Source of the DNA: Octopus vulgaris
Taxonomy: Eukaryota
Reading direction: 5' to 3'
Length of the DNA: 64,000 bases
Assembly: GCA_951406725.2 (NCBI GenBank)
Contig: OX597817.1
Coordinates: 79,670,001 to 79,734,000 of the forward strand
The notes beneath the pieces are model-generated. The model worked only from the letters and a program-made list of their open reading frames with translations. It searched no databases and was not told the origin of the DNA. Below, one piece after another: positions 1,784 through 63,290 of this stretch. The position numbers and the translations under genes were made by a program. Every line of letters starts with the position of its first letter. The first letter of the stretch is position 1.

Positions 1784-2001
1784 ATGAATGAATGAATTAG
1801 TTAATTAAATAATTAATGACGGAATGAATGAATGAGGAAGTAGAACAGGGTATATGTAAAATAGTTGCTCCAAATTTCTCTCCTGTAATAATATCAAATA
1901 TCAAATTAAAATTAAGGTAGATTTGAAACAATATGACCGCATGAAAGCCCACCAAACCACACGAACACAAACTTACATGCACAGGCACATATTTTTATGG
2001 A

Positions 2002-2032
<31 letters not shown>

Positions 2033-2124
2033 CTGTGTGTGTGTGTGCGTGTGTGTGTGTGTGTGCGCGTGTGTGTAGTTTTATGAAATTAGCTGTAAGT
2101 ATATATGGATATAAATTGTTTGTG

Positions 2125-2173
<49 letters not shown>

Positions 2174-2233
2174 GCATACATACATGTACGGAAGAATATA
2201 AGCATATATAAATATATATATATATATATACAT

Positions 2234-2278
<45 letters not shown>

Positions 2279-2417
2279 CATATACATGTATGTCTATAAT
2301 TTACATATAACTCCGTATATTTATATATACGTGTGCAATTATATGTAAATATATGCATATCATAATTTTATAATTATATAAAACTTTAGATAGATTTTAC
2401 AGAACTACTTTATATAA

Positions 2418-2471
<54 letters not shown>

Positions 2472-3311
2472 GTATGTATACATATATATACATATATATA
2501 TATACATATATATATTCATATATATATACATATCATATATATATATATATATATACGTATTTATAAAAATGTATGCATTTATGTATTGATGTATATCTAG
2601 ATCTATCTATTAATCTATCTATCTATATATATGTATATATATCTAAGTAAATGCGTGTATATCTATAGTTACATACGCACGCAACAACTCACTCATATAT
2701 GATAGCTGCATATGTGTGGTTGTCCCTGTACGTGTATGAATGGATGATACGAAGTATCCTAGATGGGTGCGTGTATGTCTACTTAGTACGAAATAAATTG
2801 AGCAAACACAAAAACAGTCACAAAAGAAAAACAAAATAACATTAAATATAATGATATAAAACATAGCCAAACTAAAGAAGATTCTAATACAGGTGGCGCT
2901 GTCGCTGATGACATGATTTGTGGGTAAATTTAGCAAATGGTAATGTAAACAGCAATTACAGATACACACCGTTACATGGAACAGCTAATGAAAACTATAG
3001 GAACAGTTTGGAAAATTAGCGAATATCATAGCAAAACAATGATTACATGCAAAGAAATAAGAAATCAACAATACGTATAAGTATATAAGTAATATAAGTA
3101 AGTGTGTATGATAGGTGCAGGTGAACATGTATGTATGCGCATTACATAGGCACAACTGGCAAGACACACACACGCATGCATACATACACTCACACATACA
3201 CACACACATGCACAAACATATACACAAACACAGACACACACACACAAAGGTATATATGTATCTACGTTCTTTAGTTTCATATATATATATGCGTTTGTAT
3301 TAGAGTATGTT

Positions 3312-3354
<43 letters not shown>

Positions 3355-3479
3355 TGTGTATGTATATATATATACATACATATTGTATATATGTTCGTAC
3401 ATATTTAGACTTATAGTTATATACATGTATAAACAGAGAATTATATAAGTATATACAGTTATATATGTATGTATGTATT

Positions 3480-3515
<36 letters not shown>

Positions 3516-5338
3516 CGTGCAAACATATATACATGTAAAGAAATATACTTATATACGTGCATATAAAGAGAATTATATAAGTAGATATGTGTGTATATGT
3601 TTATATGCATACATACGTACATATATATATATATACACACAGATTCACATATATTTCTATGTACGTATTTATGTATTTGTGTGTGTGTGTGTGTGTGTGC
3701 GTACACATGTATATTATGGGGAAATGTGAAAGAAGAAAACTAAAGTTAAACGATGAAGACACAAACAAAAGAAACAAGACCTACAACAGCAATAACAGCA
3801 GTAATAACTACAATACAATCAAGAGTTGTCCAATGTGAGTGTGTGTGGAGGTAGAAGGGATATTGAAAGTGATAGCGGTTGCCGTGGTGGTGAGGATTGT
3901 GGTGATATTGGTTGCAAAGCTTCATTGAAATTTTCCTTCAATTTTGTATAATAATAAGACAGTTGATGAAACCGAAATGATTTGTCAGGGAAGGAAGGGT
4001 GTGAGAGAATGAAGGTTGTGTTCGTTATTGAAATAAAATTAATTAAGATTGAATTAATTGCTTATGTTGTAGGAAATGTGGCAAAAACATACGAATAAAA
4101 GAGAAAAGACCCTTTTCCCTCGTCATCAGTACCTCTGCTACTACTGCAGCCGTTTCCAAAAATAATATGACACGCCACGGAGAGAGAACTGTAACATCAA
4201 CAGCAATAAACAAAAGTAATAACACACACTCACATACATACATATTTATTCACACATTTACATATATATATATATATGTATGTACATGTATAAGTTTATA
4301 TATGTATATATATGTATGTATGTGCGCGCGTGTGTGTGTATGTGTGTGTGAGTGGGAAAGAGAGTGAGAGTGCAAGCACTGTAGCAGATGCACGGCCAAG
4401 AACAATAAGAAAAAGAGCGATGATAGCAACAACAACTTCAACAACAGTAGCCAGAGTAACTCTAGATAGTGTTTTAAATTACAGTAATATAAAGAATGAA
4501 CTAATAATTATATGTGGTTGATTTTTTTATATATGTTTTTCTTTATTATAGACGGGAAAGTTCGACGGAGTTTGCATTTCGAGATGTTGGAAGGTGCGTG
4601 AAGCTATCATATTAACAAGTAAATTGAGTCTTGTCAAAGAGAGTGTATAAAGAAAAATTGCGATCTAATTTACAGGAATTGGTCAGAAGAACTTCAGCAA
4701 AATCAACAATAGAAATGAATAGTAATGTTGATGAAGTGAGAGAACGGAACTACAAAAAACAACGAAGACAAGAAATTAAGAAAATATAAACAACAAAACA
4801 GGATCATAAGCAAAACAACAACATTGACAAAAACAGAAATGCGGCAAGTATTTCACTCTAATATCCTGAGCAGAGAGCGTCTATGAGTACACACAAACAC
4901 CCCGCTCCTCCGCCACACACTCACACATACACAAACACAAACACATACACATTTATCTGTATGCATGCGTGCATTTAGTATTTATGGATGTGCATGTATA
5001 TACATATGTATATGTGTGTGTGCGTGCTAATGTGTGTGTGCGTGCTAATGTGTGTGTGTATTTATATATGTATGTCTGTATGTATGTACGTATATACGTG
5101 TGTATACATACATACATACATACATACATACATACATACATACATACATACATAGAGGGTGGGCCAAAAGCCACGCGCAAGACAAGTTTATTACGACCCC
5201 GAATTGACAGACATGCTTCAATTTCTCTAAAATAATAAAATAATAAAAAATACTCAAGTTCTTGTACATGAGGAACAAAATTAATAATAATATTGATAAC
5301 AACAACAGCAACAAAAACAGCAACAACAACAACAGCAA

Positions 5339-5369
<31 letters not shown>

Positions 5370-5479
5370 AACAACAATAATGATAATAATGGTGCCCCAG
5401 CATGGCCGCGGCCTTCGGGCTAATACATTTTAAGGATTTAATGATAATAATAGTAATAATAATAATAATAATAATGATG

Positions 5480-5512
<33 letters not shown>

Positions 5513-5514
<2 letters not shown>

Positions 5515-5810
5515 GGGTTTGAATAATTCACCTCTGGAAACATGGCTGGTTTTTTCAACATCCTTAAACAACCCTTATTCAGGGACCTTTTGAGCGGGAT
5601 GGGCTACCCAACCTGAAGAATATTCTAACTGGGCCCCACCTGCAAGGTCATGTGCTGTTTATCTTGATATGAGATCACCATGTCGCGCACATATGGTTGT
5701 GATGCATGTGCCTGGTGTACCCTTATCAGACGGGTAGTCATGATGGGTATATTGGGCTTCGTATATTTTACCCCAGTGTCACTTTGATGGCATGAACTGC
5801 TTTCTCACTC
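5513..5810 (+). mobile_element. 5'-truncated copy of a ~560-bp non-coding (TAA)n-associated repeat (family X)
   Basis: Matches 6134-6430 and the reverse complement of 37314-37610; ends CTCACTC followed by (AAT)n. Confidence 0.85.
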
Positions 5811-5869
<59 letters not shown>

Positions 5870-5871
<2 letters not shown>

Positions 5872-6430
5872 CACTGATGCAGTGCCAAGCAGTGGCTCTC
5901 ATGGCTTTTGAGCTAAACTGATTGGAAGTACAATCATGTACATGCTTTGTCTTAGTATAAAAGATGGGCTACCGCAAATATTCTCATCAATACCACAGAT
6001 TTGCTTGTCAGTTGCTTGAACTTAACCACTTCAGCATGTTATTTAGTGGCTGACGATATGTGCATATTTGTGATCACGGGCAGAAGTAGTGGGGGGTGGG
6101 GTATCATAGCCATGTGTTGAGAGGAATTCTTTTGGGTTTGAACATTTCACCTATGGAAACATGGGTGTTTCATTTATCATTCTTGAACAACTCTTATTCA
6201 AGGATCTTTTGAGCGGGATGGGCTACTCGACACGAACAAATTCTAACTGGGCCCCACTTGCAAGTTCATACGCTGTTTATCTTGATGTGATGAAATCAGA
6301 ATGTCGCGCACATATGGCTATGATGCTGTGCCTGGTGTACCCCTATCAGACAGTAGTCCTAATGGGCATATTGGGCTTCGTATATTAGTATCCCAGTGTC
6401 ACTTTGAAGGCATGCACTTCTCTCTCACTC
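5870..6430 (+). mobile_element. Apparently full-length family X element flanked by (AAT)n on both sides
   Basis: Colinear with the reverse complement of 37314-37870 over its whole length. Confidence 0.85.
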
Positions 6431-6482
6431 AATAATAATAACAATAATAATAATAACAATAATAACAATAATAATAATGATG

Positions 6483-6526
<44 letters not shown>

Positions 6527-6574
6527 TATTATTATTATTATTATTATTATGATTATTATTATTATTATTATTAT

Positions 6575-6646
<72 letters not shown>
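6431..6646. repeat. Head-to-head (AAT)n/(ATT)n microsatellite
   Basis: (AAT)n switches to (ATT)n at about 6527. Confidence 0.9.
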
Positions 6647-6649
<3 letters not shown>

Positions 6650-6746
6650 TAGTTTTATTTTTATAGCGTGCTTTCACTTCACTACCGAGCGCAGCTCTGT
6701 GTGCCTTGGGTATGTGCTGTGATTTGTTGTGATGCTCTGATGGTTT
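6647..6746 (-). mobile_element. Probable short retroelement 3' end inserted in (TAA)n
   Basis: 100-bp unique segment between two (TTA)n tracts; the minus strand ends ATAAAAATAAAACTACTG then (AAT)n. Confidence 0.5.
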
Positions 6747-6774
6747 ATTATTGTTATTATTATTATTATTATTA

Positions 6775-6808
<34 letters not shown>

Positions 6809-6809
<1 letters not shown>

Positions 6810-7650
6810 AAGGCAGAGAGCGAAGGCTTAAACAATGAAGCCAATGTGATGAAAAATTGTGTAGACTCAAAGTGTCGATACTGCAATGATTGGATAGAAA
6901 CAGTGAACCACTTAATCTCTGGATGTAAGCCCTTAGCACCTGTAGAGTACAAATCAAGACATGTCAGAGTAGGTCAATATCTACACTGGATAATGTGTCG
7001 GTATTATAAAATCAAAACTGCTGATAAATGGTACAAGCACCGCTCAGAGGGAGAAAATGTAACTATTCTTTGGGACTTCCCTGTATGTACAGACCGGACC
7101 ATCAAAGCAAACAAATCAGATATATTTGTGAAAGACCAAAACAATAAAATCTGTTTATTGATTAGCATGAGCATATCCTGTGACCATAATATCTCGACAA
7201 AAGTAAATGATAAGCTCAGAAAATATAAAGATTTGCTAATCGAAATTAAAAAGATGTGGCATCTCAAGAGGGTTACAATACCAGTGATTGTAGGAGCACT
7301 TGGAATTATCAAAAAAAGAAACTGAAAATTATTTAAGAATTATCCCTGGCTTACCATCCATACAGGAGGTGCAAAAGATTATCTTAACTGTTACGTCAGA
7401 CGTATTGAGAACAGCGTTGCCGCTGTGAATTTTCCTTCCCTTTTCCCCTTTATTTTCTTTGTTTACGCTTTTGTTTTTTTAAATTTTTTCTCTGTCTTTC
7501 TTCTTCTTTTTCTCTATCACATTACTTTGTAAATGGAAAAATTCGGTGTGTTTATTTCAATGGCCTACCAATGTATACAGTTCATTGTTATGCCCTAGAT
7601 GTCAGGAAGACACTCCGCGAGAAATGGAAACGGAATTGAAAGAAGATAAT
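6809..7650 (+). mobile_element. 3' fragment of an R4/Dong-type LINE (zinc knuckle + RLE, 3' UTR, (AAT)n tail)
   Basis: ORF 6846-7325: CRYC...ETVNHLISGC..LA..EYKSRH, ILWDFP..TDRTIKANKSDI, KLRKYKDLLIEI..MW, TIPVIVGALG; frameshift near 7320. Confidence 0.88.
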
Positions 7651-7656
7651 AATGAA

Positions 7657-7738
<82 letters not shown>

Positions 7739-7786
7739 TCTGTATCGTTCTTATTTTAGTATAAGTATTGTACTACTGATTGGCAC

Positions 7787-7859
<73 letters not shown>

Positions 7860-7881
7860 ATATATGTATATATATATATAT

Positions 7882-8811
7882 AATGTGGGATGTAGAACAT
7901 GCAAGATCAGGATGGAAGGAATACAGCCAGACGTAGAGGCGGTGTGGATAGTGGCAGCCATCCTCATTTATAATGAGGACAAAGTGGACATCCTTCAAGC
8001 CACGATAGCGGACGAAGGGAGATGGAGAGGAGGAACACTAGAGATGAGCATCCAGGCAGAAATAGAAGTACTGGAACGCTTGTCAGAAACAATTACAATG
8101 GGAGATATAAGCTTAAGAGCATGGGTGGAGGGCAGATCTCCTCAGTGTTTGAAATGTGGCCTGAAAGGCCACATAAGAGCTAGTTGCTCTCCACCAGTGA
8201 AGGAACCAATGAAGGAACCAGCAAAAGAGGTAGACGAACCCCAGGAAGAACAGAAAGAGGCAGAAGTGCAAAAGGAAAATATGGTTGAAGAAGAGGATCC
8301 AGCAGAATGGGAAACCAGTGGAAAAAGGAAGAAAAGAAAAAGAAAGAAGGCAAGCTATACTGAACCCCAACCCACCCCAGCACCACCCACACCCTTTTCG
8401 CCTCACCCTTCCTCTACAGACACTAACCCTCCCCGCTCCCCTCCAACAAGAAAACAGAAAACAGTCAAAAAGGGTAACTCACAAAATTCCCGTCCCGCAG
8501 ACCATTATGTAAATTTACTAGACAATGAAGATGAGGATTTATTAGAAATATTGCAGGATTGGGGAAAGGTTAAATTACCAGACAGCTGGGATGAGGATAG
8601 GGGTATGGAAGTAATATTAACAAGAAACCAAGGAAGAGAACTTAACAACGCCAATATGTTAGTAAGGAAGAGTATAAACTCAGGCAAGAGATATGAACTT
8701 GAGAAGCGGTATGGGGTGAAACTAGAGGACTACATAATTTTCGGAATACTGCAAGAGGAGGACATACGAGAAAGAAGGCAAGTAAGTGATGTTAACCGAT
8801 GGGACGATTAA
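7882..8811 (+). CDS. Gag-like ORF1 protein of a non-LTR retroelement (CCHC zinc knuckle, L1/Tx1-like architecture); true start unclear
   Basis: About 310 stop-free codons; EGRSPQCLKCGLKGHIRASC (CX2CX4HX4C), acidic linker, WETSGKRKKRKRKK basic patch, Pro-rich stretch; the first ~34 aa of the tracked ORF are (TA)n artefact. Confidence 0.75.
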   Translation, partial: NVGCRTCKIRMEGIQPDVEAVWIVAAILIYNEDKVDILQATIADEGRWRGGTLEMSIQAEIEVLERLSETITMGDISLRAWVEGRSPQCLKCGLKGHIRASCSPPVKEPMKEPAKEVDEPQEEQKEAEVQKENMVEEEDPAEWETSGKRKKRKRKKASYTEPQPTPAPPTPFSPHPSSTDTNPPRSPPTRKQKTVKKGNSQNSRPADHYVNLLDNEDEDLLEILQDWGKVKLPDSWDEDRGMEVILTRNQGRELNNANMLVRKSINSGKRYELEKRYGVKLEDYIIFGILQEEDIRERRQVSDVNRWDD

Positions 8812-8962
8812 CATCACATTCATTTTTCATTTTCACCCTTTCATCTTTTTAGCATACGATTATGTTTTTGTTTCAATTTCAATTTTAATTTTTGGTGTTT
8901 TGTGTGACAAATGTTTGGTGATGTCCCCCTCTATGTAAACCCTTTATGGGAAATAAAGAAAT
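7882..8962 (+). mobile_element. ORF1-only non-autonomous LINE derivative with T-rich 3' UTR ending AAATAAAGAAAT
   Basis: The ORF1 stop is followed by a 150-bp UTR and a tail resembling SINE tail T1; no ORF2 follows. Confidence 0.6.
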
Positions 8963-9128
8963 AGGTATTACATCTGTCATTACATTCTGAGTTTAAATTC
9001 CGCCGGGGTCGACTTTGCCTTTTATCCTTTCGGGGTTGATAAACTAAGTGCTAGTTTGCATATTGGTGTTGATCTAATTGACCGGCCCACTCCGCAAAGA
9101 TTTCGGGCCTTGTACATAGAGTAGAAAA
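8963..9128 (+). mobile_element. Headless SINE family A body with tail T2 (GGCCTTGT...AGTAGAAA)
   Basis: Begins AGGTATT..TCTGTC, the same position as the second units at 13354, 41941 and 44209. Confidence 0.8.
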
Positions 9129-9315
9129 GGACCTATGAGCTGGTTTGATTCTGGAGATGGTTTAAGGAAGTTAGGTCTTAGAAAACTCGATATACGGTTA
9201 ACAATGGGTTTTAAGACTATATCAAAAGAGTTACTTGGTCTACGTGTTTTACAGGACCGCATGCTACAATCAGTAGTAAATTGAAACATGTGATATATTA
9301 ATATATATTGAAGTT

Positions 9316-9520
9316 AAGGCGGCGAGCTAGCAGAATCGTTTCTGTGACGGTAAAAAATGCTTAGCGGCATTTCTTTCGACTTTACGTTCCGAGTTCAAAT
9401 GTCGCCGGCTTCGGGGGTCAATAAAATATTTAGTTGTTGAAAATTGGAGAGGGGGGAGTTACTTATCCCCTCAACCCCCACCCCACTGAAATTGCTGGCC
9501 CTCCTCCAAAATTTAAAACC
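9316..9520 (+). mobile_element. SINE family A monomer, degenerate
   Basis: AAGGCGGCGAGCTAGCAGAATCG head and GAGTTCAAAT box. Confidence 0.75.
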
Positions 9521-9776
9521 AATATATATCGACGTTGATCTTCACGCTTCTCTTTATAGTTTCACGCTTGTAGATTTTTGAGAGTCCATATTCAAATCCT
9601 GTTAAATTGTCCATTTACTTTTCCGCCAATATCAGCTTGGAAATATTTCAAGTTTCATATCTGAACGAGCAATAGCGAACGACGAACAATTTTGCTTCAC
9701 ACAACACGGTAGAGCTTGTAAGATTGTTTTCTCTTATATTCTAAATTCTTCGTCACATCGAATTGCTTACATAATT

Positions 9777-9945
9777 AATTGCTATGAAACTTATTGAATT
9801 CCAAATTTCGATCGTAATATTGCTATGAAATTTATTGAACATTTGAACTTTCATCATTTCTTATTGCTGTAAAACTTATGAAACATTTGATTTTAAACAT
9901 GTAATTTTGTTATAAAATCTATTGAATAATTGATTTTTGAGCGTA
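9777..9945 (+). repeat. Degenerate minisatellite, 4 units of about 42 bp
   Basis: TTGCTATGAAAC/TTTATTGAA recurs at about 9779, 9820, 9864 and 9907. Confidence 0.7.
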
Positions 9946-10225
9946 TATTATCGAAATAAAATTTTTCTTGTTCATTCTCTCCTGTTTAAAATTTCATCTT
10001 ATTTTCATACTACTTTTCTTTTCCATTGGAAAAACGAAACACAAAAAGAAAGTTTGAAACTGATATAGTATTTTAATAGATTAGAAAGATATTAAACAAC
10101 CATAATTCCTTTTAAGATCCAGATGCAAAGTCGAAGTAAAAAATAAGTTTCTTGTACATAGATAGACAGAGAGAGAAACAGGAAGAGAGATAAACTGAAA
10201 TACAGACAGACAACAGATAGTTGGA

Positions 10226-22083: not shown

Positions 22084-22088
<5 letters not shown>

Positions 22089-22219
22089 ATATAGAAGGAG
22101 CTTCTACAGGACTAGAACTGTTTCATTCAAGAGAAGTCTTCAGGAAGCTCAGGAGCTTCCTGAAGATTTCTCTTGAATGAAACAGTTCTAGTCCTGTAGA
22201 AGCTCCTTCTATATAATAA
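22084..22219. repeat. Near-perfect 136-bp palindrome carrying a hammerhead motif on each strand
   Basis: 67-bp arms with one mismatch, 2-nt centre (AG at 22151-22152). Confidence 0.95.
22151..22207 (+). ncRNA. Type I hammerhead ribozyme motif, intact core
   Basis: AGGAGCTTC-CTGAAGA-tTTC tctt GAAt-GAA-ACAG ttctagtc CTGT-A-GAAGCTCCT: 9-bp helix I, 4-bp helix III, GUA site; mirror copy at 22096-22150 (-). Confidence 0.75.
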
Positions 22220-44717: not shown

Positions 44718-46260
<1,543 letters not shown>

Positions 46261-46349
46261 TATTTATACTATAAAATTTGATTTAATCCTAAATCTAATT
46301 TTTCCCTGTAAGTTTGGATTTATTCCCTAATATTATTATTATTATATAT

Positions 46350-47063
46350 ATATGAATATATGAAAGAATGGAGTCGAACGAAAATGCTAACAAAATTCCT
46401 TTACTCTTGACATATGTTTCGAAGACATGTTTTCATTCCAAAGGAATTAAGGGTGCATTATGCAATCTTATCATCAGGAAAGAAAGGGGGCCTCTCTCGA
46501 CAACAAGACAAGGGTACGTTGTACTCATATAAATAATAACGTTAGTCACTGGGGTTTGAACCATTAGCTTTACATCCACCCCACTTCTATAGCGAAATTC
46601 TTTCCTAAGCCTTCGAACATTCTTTCAATCAACGTACCCTTCCCTCTCCACTTGTTCCCTACCTATTATTCCTTTAACCCTTCTCTTCCTACTATCTATC
46701 TTTGACGTCAATTCTTTTAACGGTTTTTTTAAAAAACACTCATTATCGTTTTGGTTACCATGTAGGCAGTCATCGAAATTTTTGATTGTCTTGTTGTCGA
46801 GAGAGGCTCCCTTTCTTTCCTGATGAGAAGATTGCATAATGCACCCTTTATTCCTTTGGAATGAAAACATGTTGTCTTCGAAACATATGTCGAGAGTAAA
46901 TGAATTTTGTTAACATCTTCGTTCGACTCCATTCTTTCATTTATTCATATACAACACACAAATTTTTGCACATGAATCCGGAGTTTCTACCCTTGGACAG
47001 GTCGCTTCAACCGTGTTTCTGACGTGAATTTGCTACTCAGGTTTCGGTTAAACGAATTTTCCA
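46350..47063. mobile_element. Inverted-repeat element family P (arms 46350-46511/46786-46951) with conserved 3' extension
   Basis: Shares GAATGGAGT.GAACG termini and CAACCGTG...TTTGCTAC.CAGGT.TCGGTTAAAC with 49933-50353 and 50985-51484. Confidence 0.8.
46816..46895 (+). ncRNA. Type I hammerhead ribozyme motif, canonical GUC site
   Basis: TTTC-CTGATGA-GAAGA...TCTTC-GAAAC ATAT GTC-GAGA; mirror copy at 46405-46481 (-). Confidence 0.8.
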
Positions 47064-47119
47064 TGCTGACGATAAACATAGGATAATTCATTCACCTATT
47101 TATATATATATATAATTAG

Positions 47120-47330
47120 AAAGTTTACGAAAATAAACAAAAGACGAAGGCAGGTGGAGTACAAACAAACAAATGTATTAGTATAGCGCTCAGGAATAGA
47201 AATAAAAAAAAGTCTTCTACGTTTCGAGCCTACGCTCTTCGACAGAAAGATATACAGAAAAAAACAAGGAGAGAAAAAAATGCGTGTAGGAGCTAACGAT
47301 CTATCATGGCGTCCTGACTACTAGCAGAGG
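47120..47330 (-). mobile_element. Solo PLE terminal repeat (same family as 13671-13880) with minimal hammerhead-like motif at 47214-47249
   Basis: CTTT-CTGTCGAA-GAGC gtag GCTC-GAAAC-GTA-GAAG; abuts (TA)n. Confidence 0.75.
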
Positions 47331-47448
47331 CACCCGGCGTTGCTCGGAAATGAAATTTTTCCTTATATATTGGAAGAAAAATGCAAAATATTTCGTTTTT
47401 GGATTTGGTTTGGAAGATTCTTTATATGAGTTCGTGTGCTGAAGCGTT

Positions 47449-47673
47449 TTCTGTTGTGTCTGGGGAGAGTCATTTTCTTTTTGTGCCTTATAATGTAACA
47501 CACTACCCGGTAAAATTTCCACTTATTTCTTATTTTTATTTTCCTAAAATTTTCGTTGCATCTTGAACGAAAATTTTAGGAAAATAAAAATAAGAAATAA
47601 GTGGAAATTTTATGGTGAGTGTGTTACATTATAAAGCACAAAAAGAAAATGACTCTCCCCAGACACAACAGAA
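47449..47673. repeat. Inverted repeat, ~108-bp arms, 7-nt spacer
   Basis: TTCTGTTGTGTCTGGGGAGAGTC...AATTTTCGTT / AACGAAAATT...GACTCTCCCCAGACACAACAGAA. Confidence 0.9.
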
Positions 47674-47776
47674 TACAAAATATATTGAATACAAATTATT
47701 CCAAATTCAATTTATTCTTCAATTGGGATACAATCTATTCTTCAATTGGGAAATCAATTCTGAATTCATAATGCAA

Positions 47777-47835
<59 letters not shown>

Positions 47836-47855
47836 TGATGATGATAATGATAGTG

Positions 47856-47886
<31 letters not shown>

Positions 47887-47899
47887 GAAGAAGAAGAAG

Positions 47900-47944
<45 letters not shown>

Positions 47945-47977
47945 AATAATAATAATAATAACAACAACAACAACAAC

Positions 47978-48076
<99 letters not shown>

Positions 48077-48092
48077 AAGAAGAATAATGATA

Positions 48093-48486
48093 ATAAAGAT
48101 CTGGAAATAGAAATCAGCAAAATGTGGAACCTGAAGACTAAAACAATACCTGTTGTCGTAGGTGCCCTGGGAATCATAGCAAAAGGGGCTGATTGCTACC
48201 TAACTCAGATACCAGGAAACCCCAAAATGGCAGAAATTCAAAAGATAGTGCTCATGGGAACTGCTCATATCCTACGCAAAATACATTCTTTGTAATCTCT
48301 AGTTTTAAAACAAACATAATTTTCGTATGTTTTTTTTAGGCATTCACTAGTACAACACTAAGTACAAAACCAAATATATGGCATCCTAGACATAACATCA
48401 ACATGAACTTCCAACTTGTTTCTCGTGAGGTCTCTGGGTGAGACTTGGAGCCAGCTTGTGCAAATGTAAAGCAAAAGTTAAACATA

Positions 48487-48488
<2 letters not shown>
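48093..48488 (+). mobile_element. R4/Dong-type LINE extreme 3' end inside an (AAT)n/(AAC)n/(AAG)n tract
   Basis: KDLEIEISKMWNLKTKTIPVVVGALG...IQKIVLMGTAHILRK; (AAT)n follows the UTR. Confidence 0.85.
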
Positions 48489-48540
<52 letters not shown>

Positions 48541-49104
48541 TAATAATAGTAAAAGGAAATACAAAATTTATCAAGTTTATGAAAGGAGATAAATTCTACC
48601 ACATATGTAGAAGGAAATTACGTAAGAACTTCTGGGTAAACAATAATCTTTATTTTCTGTCTTAGAGCATAGAAAAATAAGTGTTGCAAACTCCCTACCC
48701 TGGAGCAACCAACCTAAAGGTGGCTATGAGAAAAGGAAGCCAGTAGATTTCAAAGACTGATCTTGAGCTTTATTAATAGACATTGTAAAGCAAGGAATTG
48801 TGTTCGTTTGAACAAAAATGGCGTATCTATTGGTTTGATTGGAATTCTTAGAATGAAAGCTTCTTCCCCAGAGGCACATCCATAAGCTGAAAACCATAGG
48901 CAAATGCATAAATCCGAATTTTATAAGGCCTGAAGTTTTAAGGGCAGGAACAAGTTGAACACATCAACCTCAGTGTTCAGCTAGTACTTATTTTCTCCAT
49001 CAAGGATGAATGTCCTGTTTGACCTCAGTGAAATATGAACTCAGAATGTAATGACAGACAAACTGCCACTAAACATGTTGTTGATATGCTGCTAAGGATT
49101 AGCA

Positions 49105-49592
49105 AATCGATGACATCTCAGAATCGAGAAGGGAGGGTCAATATGCAATTGTCTTCCCAATAGCAACATATGGATGCGAGACCAGGACACTAAAGAAAGC
49201 TGACCAGAAGAGAAATAATGCATTCGAGCTTTGGTGTTGGAGAAGACTTTTACGGATTCCATGGACAGCGATGCTCACCAATGGAGAAGTTCTTAAGCAG
49301 ATCAGGCCGAAAATGTCGCTAGAAGCTAGGATCACCAAGCATAGATTGGCATATTTCGGTCATATTATGCGGAGAAAATCCCTGGAGAAGGACATCATGC
49401 TCGGAATGGTCAGTGGCAAGAGAGGAAGAGGCCGACCAAGAATCCGCTGGCTTCACACCATCAAGAGTGATACCGGAATGGACATAGCCAATCTGAAGGA
49501 AGCGGCCCAGGATAGAACTGACTGGAGGACACTGATCCAACGAGTAACCGAGAGTCGACTTCGACTGAGCGGATAGATAGATAGATAGATAG
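49105..49592 (+). mobile_element. RTE-clade (BovB-like) LINE 3' end with (TAGA)n tail
   Basis: VFPIATYGCE, AFELWCWRRLLRIPWTA, LAYFGHIMRR.SLEKDIMLG...GKRGRGRPRIRW, DRTDWR...VTESRLRL. Confidence 0.9.
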
Positions 49593-49610
49593 ACATGTAT
49601 ATATATACAT

Positions 49611-49797
49611 TTATAACAATAATTAAGGGTTTAGCAACAAGTTGCTTCACCACATGCCGAAAATTTAGAAATAGCAGCCAAAAGACCGTTATTTCTTTTT
49701 CCTACAAAAAAAGAAATAACGGTCTTTTGGCTGCTATTTCTAAATTTTCGGCATGTGGTGAAGCAACTTGTTGCTAAACCCTTAATTATTGTTATAA
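49611..49797. repeat. Perfect palindrome, ~89-bp arms
   Basis: TTATAACAATAATTAAGGG...GTTATTTCTTTTT cctacaa AAAAAGAAATAAC...CCCTTAATTATTGTTATAA. Confidence 0.95.
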
Positions 49798-49828
49798 TCA
49801 TACATAAAAAAAAACTTTCTGTATAAGC

Positions 49829-49875
49829 TTTTGCTGAATATGGTTCCTTTTCATACCGAAACTACTTGGTAAAAT
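49829..49875 (+). ncRNA. Degenerate hammerhead motif just downstream of the palindrome
   Basis: TTTTG-CTGAATA-tGGT...ACC-GAAAC TACTTG GTA-AAA (G8 changed to T). Confidence 0.45.
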
Positions 49876-49932
49876 TTATTAATTTATTAAATTAATAATT
49901 CTTTACCCTATATCTGTAATAATTTATATATA

Positions 49933-50353
49933 TATGAATAAATGAAAGAATGGAGTTGAACGACAAATTAACAAACTTCCTTTATTTTCGACATATGTTT
50001 CGAAGGCTGCATATTCCTAATTGTGAAGGAATAAGGAGTACATTATGCCGCTTTCTCATCAAGAAAAACAAGGAATTTATGTCAACATCAAGATTCACAA
50101 AACTTTTAGATGACTATAATGTACTCCTTATTCCTTCACAATTAGGAATATGCAGCCTTCGAACATATGTCGAAAATAAAGGAAGTTTGTTAATTTGTCG
50201 TTCAACTCCATTCTTTCATTTATTCATAAATTTTATAAAAATACAGACAAATTTCCACACGAAAACACGTAGTCTCTGCCCTAGGCACGTAACTTCAACC
50301 GTGTTATTTCTGATGTGAATTTGCTACCCAGGTATCGGTTAAACGAATTATCC
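49933..50353. mobile_element. Family P inverted-repeat element; hammerhead at 49985-50067 (-) with C3>T
   Basis: TTTTC-TTGATGA-GAAAGC...GCCTTC-GAAAC ATAT GTC-GAAAA; right arm truncated. Confidence 0.75.
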
Positions 50354-50984
50354 ATAAAAAGATATTTCATTTTTCTACTCAAATATATATATATATATTT
50401 ATATCGTGAAGTATATTTGCCACTTCAATGTGGCTAACCCATATGGGACGATGCTACTCTAGTTTATAGCCCCAGGAAGATATCTCCTCCAGCTGGCTAA
50501 CGACACACTGTCTGTGCCCGATCAGTATTTGCGAAGAAAAATCATCGTTCCCATTTCTAGCCTGACACACGGAACCGGGCTTCTGGGTATTAACCAGTTA
50601 TCAGCGTGTGACAATCACCGGTTAGAGATGAGAGGTGATTTCGCACGCAAAGACATATGCTTTTTCCAGTGACAAAACGTCGCTGATCCCGAAAAAAGAA
50701 AAACAAGCAATAATAAATCTCCGAACGAAATGTAGTAGCAGCAAGATGTATATGTATATGTATATACATACATGCATACATACATACATACATACACACA
50801 TACTTACATACATACATACATACTTACATACATACATTCATACACACATACACACACACATATATATATATATGCATATACATATATACATATATACATA
50901 CATACACATATATATATATATAAATTTATATACTCACACATATTTACGTATGTACATACATATATATATATATATATATATTAT

Positions 50985-51484
50985 TATTGAATGGAAGAAA
51001 TGGAGTTGAACGAAGATTGTACAGAATTCCTTTTATTACATTCTACACATGTTTCAAAGGCCACAAATTTCCAAATTCTGATTAAATAAGGGTACCATAT
51101 TGTGGCTTTCTCATCAGGAAAAAACAGGAATTCCGTTGACAGAACAAAACAGTTCAGCCATGGGCTCTTAAAGAGCCTCCTCGTTCGAATTGCTGCGCCT
51201 CTGTTCTGTTTTGTTCTGTCAACGGAATTCCTGTTTTTTCCTGATGAGAATGCCACAATATGGTACCCTTATTTAATCAGAATTTGGAAATTTGTGGCCT
51301 TTGAAACATGTGTAGAATGTAATAAAAGGAATTCTGTACAATCTTCGTTCAACTCCATTTCTTCCATTCAATGATAATATTAAACTTCAATTATCGCACC
51401 AACGCACGGTTGCAACACCAACTGGTCTTATCTCCAACCGTGTATTTTCTGCTGTGATTTTTGCTACCCAGGTATCGGTTAAAC
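50985..51484. mobile_element. Family P inverted-repeat element (arms 50985-51152/51206-51373, nearly identical)
   Basis: Mirror ORFs 50984-51256(-) and 51102-51374(+) in the track reflect the palindrome. Confidence 0.88.
51238..51317 (+). ncRNA. Type I hammerhead motif, intact core
   Basis: TTC-CTGATGA-GAAtGCCACA...TGTGGCcTTT-GAAAC ATGT GTA-GAA; mirror copy at 51041-51120 (-). Confidence 0.75.
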
Positions 51485-51524
51485 TTTTGAATAATCTGTA
51501 ACAAGAAAATTCATCTTTCTATTT

Positions 51525-51564
<40 letters not shown>

Positions 51565-62640: not shown

Positions 62641-62996
<356 letters not shown>

Positions 62997-63023
62997 AAAA
63001 TAAGCAACAAGAATGACTCTGGT

Positions 63024-63114
63024 AATTTGGTACAATTGTTTCGCACTACATCATTTTATTAAAAGTTGTAAGTATTACAGCAGATTTAAGATGCTGAGTG
63101 CTCATCAGCCAATT
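63024..63114 (-). ncRNA. Type I hammerhead ribozyme motif, fully canonical
   Basis: TTGG-CTGATGA-GCACT...AGTGC-GAAAC AATT GTA-CCAA; lies in inverted repeat 62995-63064/63120-63190 between (TA)n tracts. Confidence 0.82.
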
Positions 63115-63290
63115 ATATATTTTAATAAAATGATGTAGTGCGAAACAATTGTACCAAATTACCGGAGTCATTCTTGTTGCTTGTTTTTTATTATAATCAC
63201 CCCGTAAATTTTTATGGATAACACCATACAAAATTCTGGTGCATCTAAATTAAGTACCATATTCATTTGAATCCAAATTCTTGCTGAACT

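What the first reader, a model, noticed from the sequence alone, without database searches (positions are those of the whole stretch)
46350..51484. Family P: three clustered, divergent inverted-repeat elements, each carrying hammerheads and a shared ~100-bp extension
Copies at 46350, 49933 and 50985 share terminal GAATGGAGT.GAACG, the hammerhead core, and a downstream CAACCGTG...TTTGCTAC.CAGGT.TCGGTTAAAC box. Helix II differs with compensatory changes (GAAGA/TCTTC, GAAAGC/GCCTTC, GAAAGCCACA/TGTGGCCTTT). The two arms within a copy are far more alike than copies are to each other, so the inversion appears to be made anew at each insertion or homogenised afterwards. None has coding capacity.
Basis: partly seen in the sequence, partly recalled or inferred. 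Interest (0 to 1): 0.75.

Follow-up and report, generated by a model that had tools for sequence, protein, structure and literature searches.

The report
Three truncated Penelope retrotransposon insertions
The three mirror-image repeats are short stubs of three related, abundant Penelope-type jumping genes whose full-length parents lie elsewhere in this genome, a known footprint, though each pairs one long-ended with one short-ended half so strictly that it hints at how these elements likely insert.

Summary
The repeats are real. They are 5'-truncated insertions of three subfamilies of a Penelope-like retrotransposon (PLE), not three copies of one non-coding family. Each has 95-99% identical relatives genome-wide. 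Full-length parents carry pLTR-ORF-pLTR. Their RT model's top ten fold hits are telomerases, and the C-terminal domain is GIY-YIG (Z 10.4). The type I hammerhead covaries, but only 3 of 6 arms keep it intact. The extension is the PLE tail, here 140-152 nt against 30-40 in print. Of 73 insertions sampled without regard to the tail, 43 join one long-ended and one short-ended arm; none is long/long or short/short. Arms share lineage variants (352 of 364 sites), and in 22 of 69 each arm holds sequence the other lacks. The inversion is therefore likely made at insertion, not homogenised later. The conserved box pairs with a sequence just before the ATG in full-length copies. The layout is published, and this scan had already noted such stubs in this genome and others. 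Verdict: new members of a known kind, with minor mechanistic interest.

The parts
46349..46512 (-). Copy 1 (subfamily F1): inverted arm ending at the short terminus, in a TA run; hammerhead damaged (core 46477-46471)
46515..47101 (+). Copy 1 direct arm: end of parent ORF, 3' UTR/pLTR, hammerhead and tail, ending at the long terminus; 93-97% identical to full-length L091/L095
46522..46536 (+). Last codons and stop (YSYK*) of the parent RT/GIY-YIG ORF
   Evidence: parent ORFs end HTFYSYK*
46815..46896 (+). Intact type I hammerhead motif: core CTGATGA at 46820, long helix II, palindromic helix III ACATATGT, predicted cut after 46891
   Evidence: cleavage not tested
46952..47101 (+). Copy 1 tail (150 nt) between the short and long termini; conserved box at 47008-47053
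49923..50115 (-). Copy 2 (subfamily F2): inverted short-ended arm; hammerhead with C3U core change (50062-50056)
50116..50383 (+). Copy 2 direct long-ended arm, truncated inside helix II; tail about 140 nt, box at 50296-50344; 98% identical to GIY-YIG-bearing L077/L087
50978..51152 (-). Copy 3 (subfamily F3): inverted short-ended arm with intact hammerhead motif (core 51117-51111); overlaps the direct arm by a 6-nt microhomology AAACAG
51147..51531 (+). Copy 3 direct long-ended arm: intact hammerhead motif (core 51241, predicted cut after 51314), tail 152 nt, box at 51435-51484; 98% identical to L038, 94% to full-length L160

Best explanation
Each repeat is a 5'-truncated insertion of a Penelope-like retrotransposon in a TA microsatellite, and its two arms were likely copied from the element's RNA during one insertion event. 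Shown: parent elements with telomerase-like RT and C-terminal GIY-YIG, two fixed 3' termini 140-152 nt apart, TA flanks, variable 5' breakpoints, and strict long+short pairing. Inferred from the PAc in vitro work (PMC11167929): the endonuclease nicks both strands of AT-rich DNA. One 3' end primes reverse transcription at the distal internal site and the other at the proximal site. Both cDNAs stall early and are joined head to head by microhomology or a few added bases. The conserved box is predicted to be one strand of a leader hairpin that closes just before the ATG and encloses the distal start site. The hammerhead is a passenger of the pLTR, predicted to work only as a dimer in tandem parent transcripts. 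In these stubs the two motifs lie on opposite strands, and a read-through RNA is predicted to fold into one long hairpin. Confidence is about 0.97 for the identity and about 0.6 for the two-site priming step.
For: Parents: L091 and L095 (F1), L160 (F3 lineage), and L156, a head-to-tail array with period 3624 nt and a stop-free 899-codon frame. RT model pLDDT 91, top ten PDB hits all TERT. EN best hit I-TevI, Z 10.4, rmsd 2.4 over 89 residues; ranks 1, 2, 4, 6 and 7 are GIY-YIG nucleases. F2 and F3 copies run into GIY-YIG sequence. Tail-independent sample: 43 of 73 long+short, 0 long/long, 0 short/short. Tail-selected sample: 69 of 76 adjacent inverted pieces start at the short end and none at the long end. 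In 22 of 69 each arm has sequence the other lacks. Arms agree at 352 of 364 lineage-diagnostic sites against 275 expected. TA-rich 3' flank in 98 of 115. Helix II: 7 of 12 pairs with two-sided change. Leader hairpin: 4 of 11 pairs.
Against: No activity was tested: no cleavage, priming or transposition data for these elements. Pfam found nothing on the octopus ORFs, PDB sequence searches were blank, and Foldseek E-values for the EN were weak, 0.16 at best. Rfam has no hammerhead hit, and monomer MFE folds give the hammerhead shape only for copy 1 right, with z -1.0. In 15 of 69 insertions the two breakpoints coincide within 10 nt, which fits a fold-back route. The leader-hairpin covariation comes from only two lineages among 7 rows, and F1 has a U-U mismatch in it. 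No full-length F2 parent was fetched. No contig in four public runs bridged copy 1's own junction.
Confidence: 0.9

Rival explanations
1. Same elements, but the inverted arm arises by self-priming or snap-back: one cDNA (or an antisense RNA, as proposed in PMC3846280) folds back and copies itself.
For: 15 of 69 insertions have both breakpoints within 10 nt, some at internal palindromes. In 32 of 69 the short arm lies wholly within the long arm, as in window copies 1 and 3. Shared lineage variants are also expected under this model.
Against: In 22 of 69 (14 of 18 in the pattern-picked subset) the short arm reaches further 5' than the long arm, by up to 1.1 kb, while the long arm has the tail, so neither can be a copy of the other. 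Window copy 2 is such a case.
Confidence: 0.2
2. A purpose-built non-autonomous fold-back element or retrozyme that spreads as a unit through a hairpin or circular RNA.
For: High copy number, no ORF in the window copies, and a type I hammerhead with palindromic helix III like those of retrozymes.
Against: No fixed unit: 5' ends and inversion points vary from insertion to insertion and run continuously into the ORF. No tandem short monomers were seen in the loci classified. Opposite-strand motifs cannot pair in cis, and the predicted fold is one long hairpin.
Confidence: 0.04
3. Arms were made alike after insertion by gene conversion or cruciform repair.
For: Arm-arm divergence (1.4-3.2%) is below arm-to-other-copy divergence (2.5-4.6%) in 54 of 62 insertions, and 16 shared variants are private to one locus.
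Against: 163 differences are unshared, and 63 of 79 shared variants recur in other copies, so they come from the source lineage. Conversion does not explain fixed termini or long+short pairing.
Confidence: 0.05
4. The inverted arms are assembly or library fold-back artefacts.
For: No public contig bridged copy 1's junction.
Against: Arms differ by up to 8 substitutions in 148 nt, always stop at a biological terminus and sit in TA runs. Contigs of public runs X2, X4 and X13 show opposite-strand joints in this family.
Confidence: 0.01

Closest known systems
EN+ Penelope-like element insertions with inverted 5'-truncated copy and one-sided tail (PMC8557442 Fig. 2 text; Pen2a_Av in PMC3846280)
   Same: pLTR-ORF-pLTR and tandem parents, telomerase-like RT with C-terminal GIY-YIG, inverted truncated copy at the 5' side, tail at one end, microsatellite targets, Asn-rich linker.
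   Different: Tail is 140-152 nt rather than 30-40. The hammerhead lies about 330-340 nt upstream of the ATG. No target-site duplication can be read because of the TA runs.
PAc (Poseidon of Anolis carolinensis; PMC11167929)
   Same: Two internal termini defining the tail, AT-rich targets, hammerhead in the pLTR, stem-loop predicted at a start site.
   Different: PAc starts reverse transcription inside the ORF (+111-118). Here both termini lie upstream of the ATG and are about four times further apart. PAc showed no strand difference in start site, whereas here the arms pair strictly long+short.
Neptune-type PLEs (Cys-rich RT-EN linker; PMC8557442, PMC3846280)
   Same: Closest protein homologs carry a Cys-rich linker (38 of 40 complete ones) and share the EN cysteine/histidine pattern.
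   Different: 0 of 11 complete octopus ORFs have that linker, yet they still insert into (TA)n. No named Neptune reference was in the tree.
Minimal type I hammerheads of PLE pLTRs (PMC4209133)
   Same: Short helix I, long helix II, palindromic helix III. That paper also notes dual motifs 100-700 bp apart on opposite strands.
   Different: Helix II closes a 30-35 nt loop, and no bulged base precedes helix II.
Non-LTR retrozymes (10.64898/2026.07.22.740005)
   Same: Non-coding, type I hammerhead, PLE-derived.
   Different: Retrozymes are tandem arrays of a fixed monomer; these are variable-length head-to-head stubs.

Membership tests
EN+ Penelope-like element | RT most similar to telomerase RT | tested here: met
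   Model pLDDT 91; Foldseek ranks 1-10 are TERT, best E 1.9e-10; atlas neighbours are RT clusters. Pfam blank on the octopus ORF; 3 of 50 homolog rows hit RVT_1.
EN+ Penelope-like element | C-terminal GIY-YIG endonuclease in the same ORF | tested here: met
   Single 895-aa ORF in L156; EN model matches I-TevI Z 10.4 and T4 EndoII Z 8.3.
EN+ Penelope-like element | pLTRs and tandem arrangement | tested here: met
   L091, L095, L160 and L171 pLTR-ORF-pLTR; L156 tandem, period 3624.
EN+ Penelope-like element | Inverted 5'-truncated copy and one-sided tail | tested here: met
   43 of 73 long+short pairs; tail longer than published.
EN+ Penelope-like element | Hammerhead in the pLTR | tested here: met
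EN+ Penelope-like element | Intron in the 5' leader (seen in some PLEs) | tested here: inconclusive
   A GT..AG candidate in F1 lacks its AG in F3/F4; no splice joint in four contig sets.
Neptune clade | Cys-rich Zn-finger linker between RT and EN | tested here: not met
   0 of 11 complete octopus ORFs against 38 of 40 homologs; 33 incomplete rows not scored.
Neptune clade | Placement with reference Neptune RTs | tested here: inconclusive
   Quick tree only, midpoint root, no named references; octopus rows group with linker-bearing P0001 at SH-aLRT 96.
Type I hammerhead ribozyme | CUGANGA and GAAA core, NUH cut site, three helices | tested here: met
   3 of 6 window arms intact. With the core 7-mer left free, 148 of 169 matches are CTGANGA, varying at N7. 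91% of cells paired against 40-49% for slid controls.
Type I hammerhead ribozyme | Match to an Rfam hammerhead model | tested here: inconclusive
   No hammerhead row at E<=10; the long helix II may defeat the models (inference).
Type I hammerhead ribozyme | Self-cleavage | not testable with these tools
   Only contigs were available, which cannot show RNA ends.
Non-LTR retrozyme | Tandem fixed-length monomers each with a hammerhead | tested here: not met
   Variable 5' ends, head-to-head layout, continuity with ORF.

The most novel reading that the evidence does not exclude
These octopus PLEs record an ordered two-primer insertion: each event uses the distal start site on one strand and the proximal site on the other, never the same site twice. 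The distal site is set by a covarying hairpin that forms only across the pLTR-ATG junction. The lineage has also lost the Zn-finger linker proposed to drive microsatellite targeting, yet keeps (TA)n targeting. The 150-nt tail and intact young parents make this a better test system for how PLEs build inverted ends than those described.
Probability: 0.45. Interest if true: 0.5.

Novelty: new member of a known kind. Interest (0 to 1): 0.27.

Why it matters
The structure itself is a published PLE footprint, so the finding as written is ordinary. PMC8557442 names the origin of PLE tandem/inverted structures and microsatellite bias as open. The strict long+short pairing, the independent templating of both arms, the leader hairpin and the missing linker give testable constraints, and intact tandem parents exist to test them. 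Practically, such stubs should be annotated as PLE ends, not as MITEs, miRNA hairpins or ribozyme switches.

Tried and rejected
Rfam: no hammerhead row among the 150 of 387 rows shown for the window or among all 68 for the region; the miRNA rows are hairpin or microsatellite noise below gathering score. Pfam on octopus ORFs and on P0001/P0002: nothing meaningful. PDB by sequence and profile: blank. The representative-protein search did not run, so homolog sampling rests. Fixed 600-nt SINE idea (many hits began at one point): rejected, that point was just copy 1's own truncation. Leader intron: not supported. Expression: no RNA holder listed on record; 'RNA?' runs are guesses and contigs only, so no conclusion. 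Copy 1's junction was not bridged in four runs, uninformative. tblastn of the intact ORF against the window: no hit, so no local parent. A-to-G hyperediting (lead from e1-8673030): not seen, A>G is 11 and T>C 33 of 169 arm differences and the window arms show no such run. Clustering as a special feature: uniform insertion predicts 0.01-1.7 triples within 5.2 kb for an assumed 2,000-10,000 insertions (the total is my assumption). Neighbours from other subfamilies also occur at L023, L039, L081 and L100, so a TA-rich hot spot plus selection of this window suffices. Core conservation in alignment A6 is by construction (rows picked by a core pattern) and is not used as evidence. Host genes around the site were not examined.
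Full report
Observation. The window lies in a 2.8-Gb, microsatellite-rich animal genome, an octopus by homolog names. Three fold-backs with a right-hand extension lie at 46349-47101, 49923-50383 and 50978-51531, each between TA-rich runs. Copies are 68-79% identical to each other. Arm differences over the overlap are 8 of 148, 0 of 102 and 1 of 161 nt. The extension is 150, about 140 and 152 nt. Its box has 902 exact genomic matches and the reversed control has 0.

Three subfamilies. Each copy retrieves its own set of 95-99% identical relatives. The best 40 candidates were scored of 2529, 2148 and 3202. So the gap between arm identity and copy identity mostly reflects three subfamilies (F1, F2, F3).

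Parents. Longer F1 copies run into an ORF ending HTFYSYK*, and copy 1 begins with its last codons. L091 and L095 are pLTR-ORF-pLTR elements with frameshifts. F2 loci L073, L077, L082 and L087 and F3 locus L038 carry the same C-terminal domain. An RT-core search scored 150 of 6912 candidates, many in 899-codon open frames. Of 20 regions fetched (the output was partly cut), L156 is a head-to-tail array with period 3624 nt, and L160 is a full-length element 94% identical to copy 3. No full-length F2 was fetched.

Protein identity. The RT was folded with 49 of 72 homologs (A4): pLDDT 91, and its ten best PDB matches are telomerases. The C-terminal 153 residues were folded with L002 and 40 homologs (A7). 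They match I-TevI at Z 10.4 and T4 EndoII at Z 8.3. Foldseek E-values for this domain were weak, and Pfam was blank on the octopus ORFs. This is an endonuclease-bearing PLE. The Cys-rich linker that defines Neptune/Nematis (PMC8557442, passages) is absent in 11 of 11 complete octopus ORFs and present in 38 of 40 complete homologs; 33 incomplete rows were not scored. I therefore do not file it as Neptune.

Hammerhead. It is type I: core CTGANGA, helix II of up to 12 pairs around a long loop, GAAAC, and an 8-nt helix III word. In 12 subfamily rows, 91% of cells pair against 40-49% for slid controls, and 7 of 12 helix II pairs change on both sides (rows are related, so this is not a p-value). With the core left free, 148 of 169 matches keep CTGANGA and vary at N7. 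Among those 169, the helix III word is ACATATGT in 97, ACATGTGT in 70 and ACACGTGT in 1. ACACGTGT is also the word in the L156-type subfamily. All three are self-complementary allowing G-U, which fits the dimer model of PMC4209133 (parts 1-2 of 4 read). Three of six window arms are intact. Rfam has no hit and cleavage is untested. A read-through RNA of any stub is predicted to form one long hairpin.

Two termini, strictly paired. Among 115 long-ended arms (13 duplicate records dropped), 76 have an adjacent inverted piece. Of these, 69 start at the short terminus, none at the long one, and 7 are internal fragments. To remove selection on the tail I sampled 90 loci by hammerhead-region patterns, the first 30 of 450, 370 and 112 matches. 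I dropped 17 as second arms of one insertion; one of these, L259, read short/short only because the locus edge cut its partner. Of the 73 left, 43 are long+short, 12 long alone, 10 short alone and 8 other, with no long/long or short/short. Partners beyond 1.5 kb are missed, so the 'alone' classes are inflated. Junctions differ per insertion: of 69, 31 overlap by 1-7 nt (short overlaps can be chance), 5 are blunt, 27 have 1-32 extra nt, and 6 have long overlaps at palindromes or from over-extended alignments. 3' flanks are TA-rich in 98 of 115.

Made at insertion. Arm-arm divergence (3.2, 1.5 and 1.4%) is below arm-to-other-copy divergence (4.6, 2.5 and 3.1%) in 54 of 62 insertions. Shared variants are mostly lineage variants (63 against 16 private), and 163 differences are unshared. 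Arms agree at 352 of 364 diagnostic sites, 275 expected. Both arms thus come from one source lineage and have since decayed largely independently; slight conversion is not excluded. In 22 of 69 the short arm reaches further 5' than the long arm, so neither was copied from the other. In 15 of 69 the breakpoints coincide, where fold-back joining (PMC3846280, passages and discussion read) may apply.

The box. In full-length leaders RNAalifold pairs the box GGTATCGGTTA with TAACCGATACC a few bases before the ATG, with the long terminus inside the loop. Four of 11 pairs change on both sides and 92% of cells pair against 18-43% slid. The changes come from two lineages only. The partner strand is absent from the window stubs. 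PMC11167929 (parts 1-2 of 4 read) shows for PAc that both strands are cut and extended, that reverse transcription starts at two internal sites at a stem-loop, and that the tail is the stretch between them. I infer the same here, with a longer tail.

Known versus new. The inverted truncated copy, the one-sided 30-40 bp tail and microsatellite bias are described in PMC8557442 (passages and section 15 read). Opposite-strand hammerhead pairs are in PMC4209133. Penelope-like families are annotated as recently active in Octopus vulgaris (PMC13282606, passages). For the retrozyme preprint I read part 1 of 5. Earlier scan notes reached a similar identity on other DNA, after I had stated my reading. 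I did not find the 150-nt tail, the strict pairing count, the leader hairpin or the linker loss in the passages read from six searches. Supplements and Repbase were not seen and may hold these families.

Verdict. Real, explained, a new member of a known kind. Interest 0.27.

Noticed in passing
window 47245 (-) and 13802 (-): A different, minimal hammerhead-like motif (4-bp helix II, no helix III loop, altered core) in a repeat; the 47245 copy lies just right of copy 1. Possibly another PLE family.
   Followed up: partly
window 62988-63195: TA-flanked fold-back with a hammerhead-like motif at 63108 (-) and palindromic helix III ACAATTGT; probably a stub of another PLE family.
   Followed up: no
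window 22084-22219, 47446-47676, 49611-49797: Further short fold-backs, 92-97% arm identity; origin not checked.
   Followed up: no
window 44797-46273: A 1.47-kb AT-rich inverted repeat directly left of copy 1; the sequence between it and copy 1 also flanks an F1 copy at L027.
   Followed up: no
window 49104-49574 and 48087-48290: 3' fragments resembling RTE-type and restriction-endonuclease-type non-LTR elements (labels recalled; Pfam blank for the first).
   Followed up: partly
L156 (G000:C1:119512500-119522400) and one search list: A young subfamily with many identical-scoring 899-codon ORFs and a three-unit tandem array, suggesting recent activity.
   Followed up: partly
L002, L157-L172 ORFs: Asn-rich low-complexity linker between RT and EN, as in Adineta Penelopes. 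Public fragments are misnamed 'GATA zinc finger' or 'myb-like' proteins in Octopus and Argonauta.
   Followed up: partly
L015, L016, L017; L057, L060; L065, L073: Insertions with shared flanks, i.e. segmental duplications; counted once.
   Followed up: no
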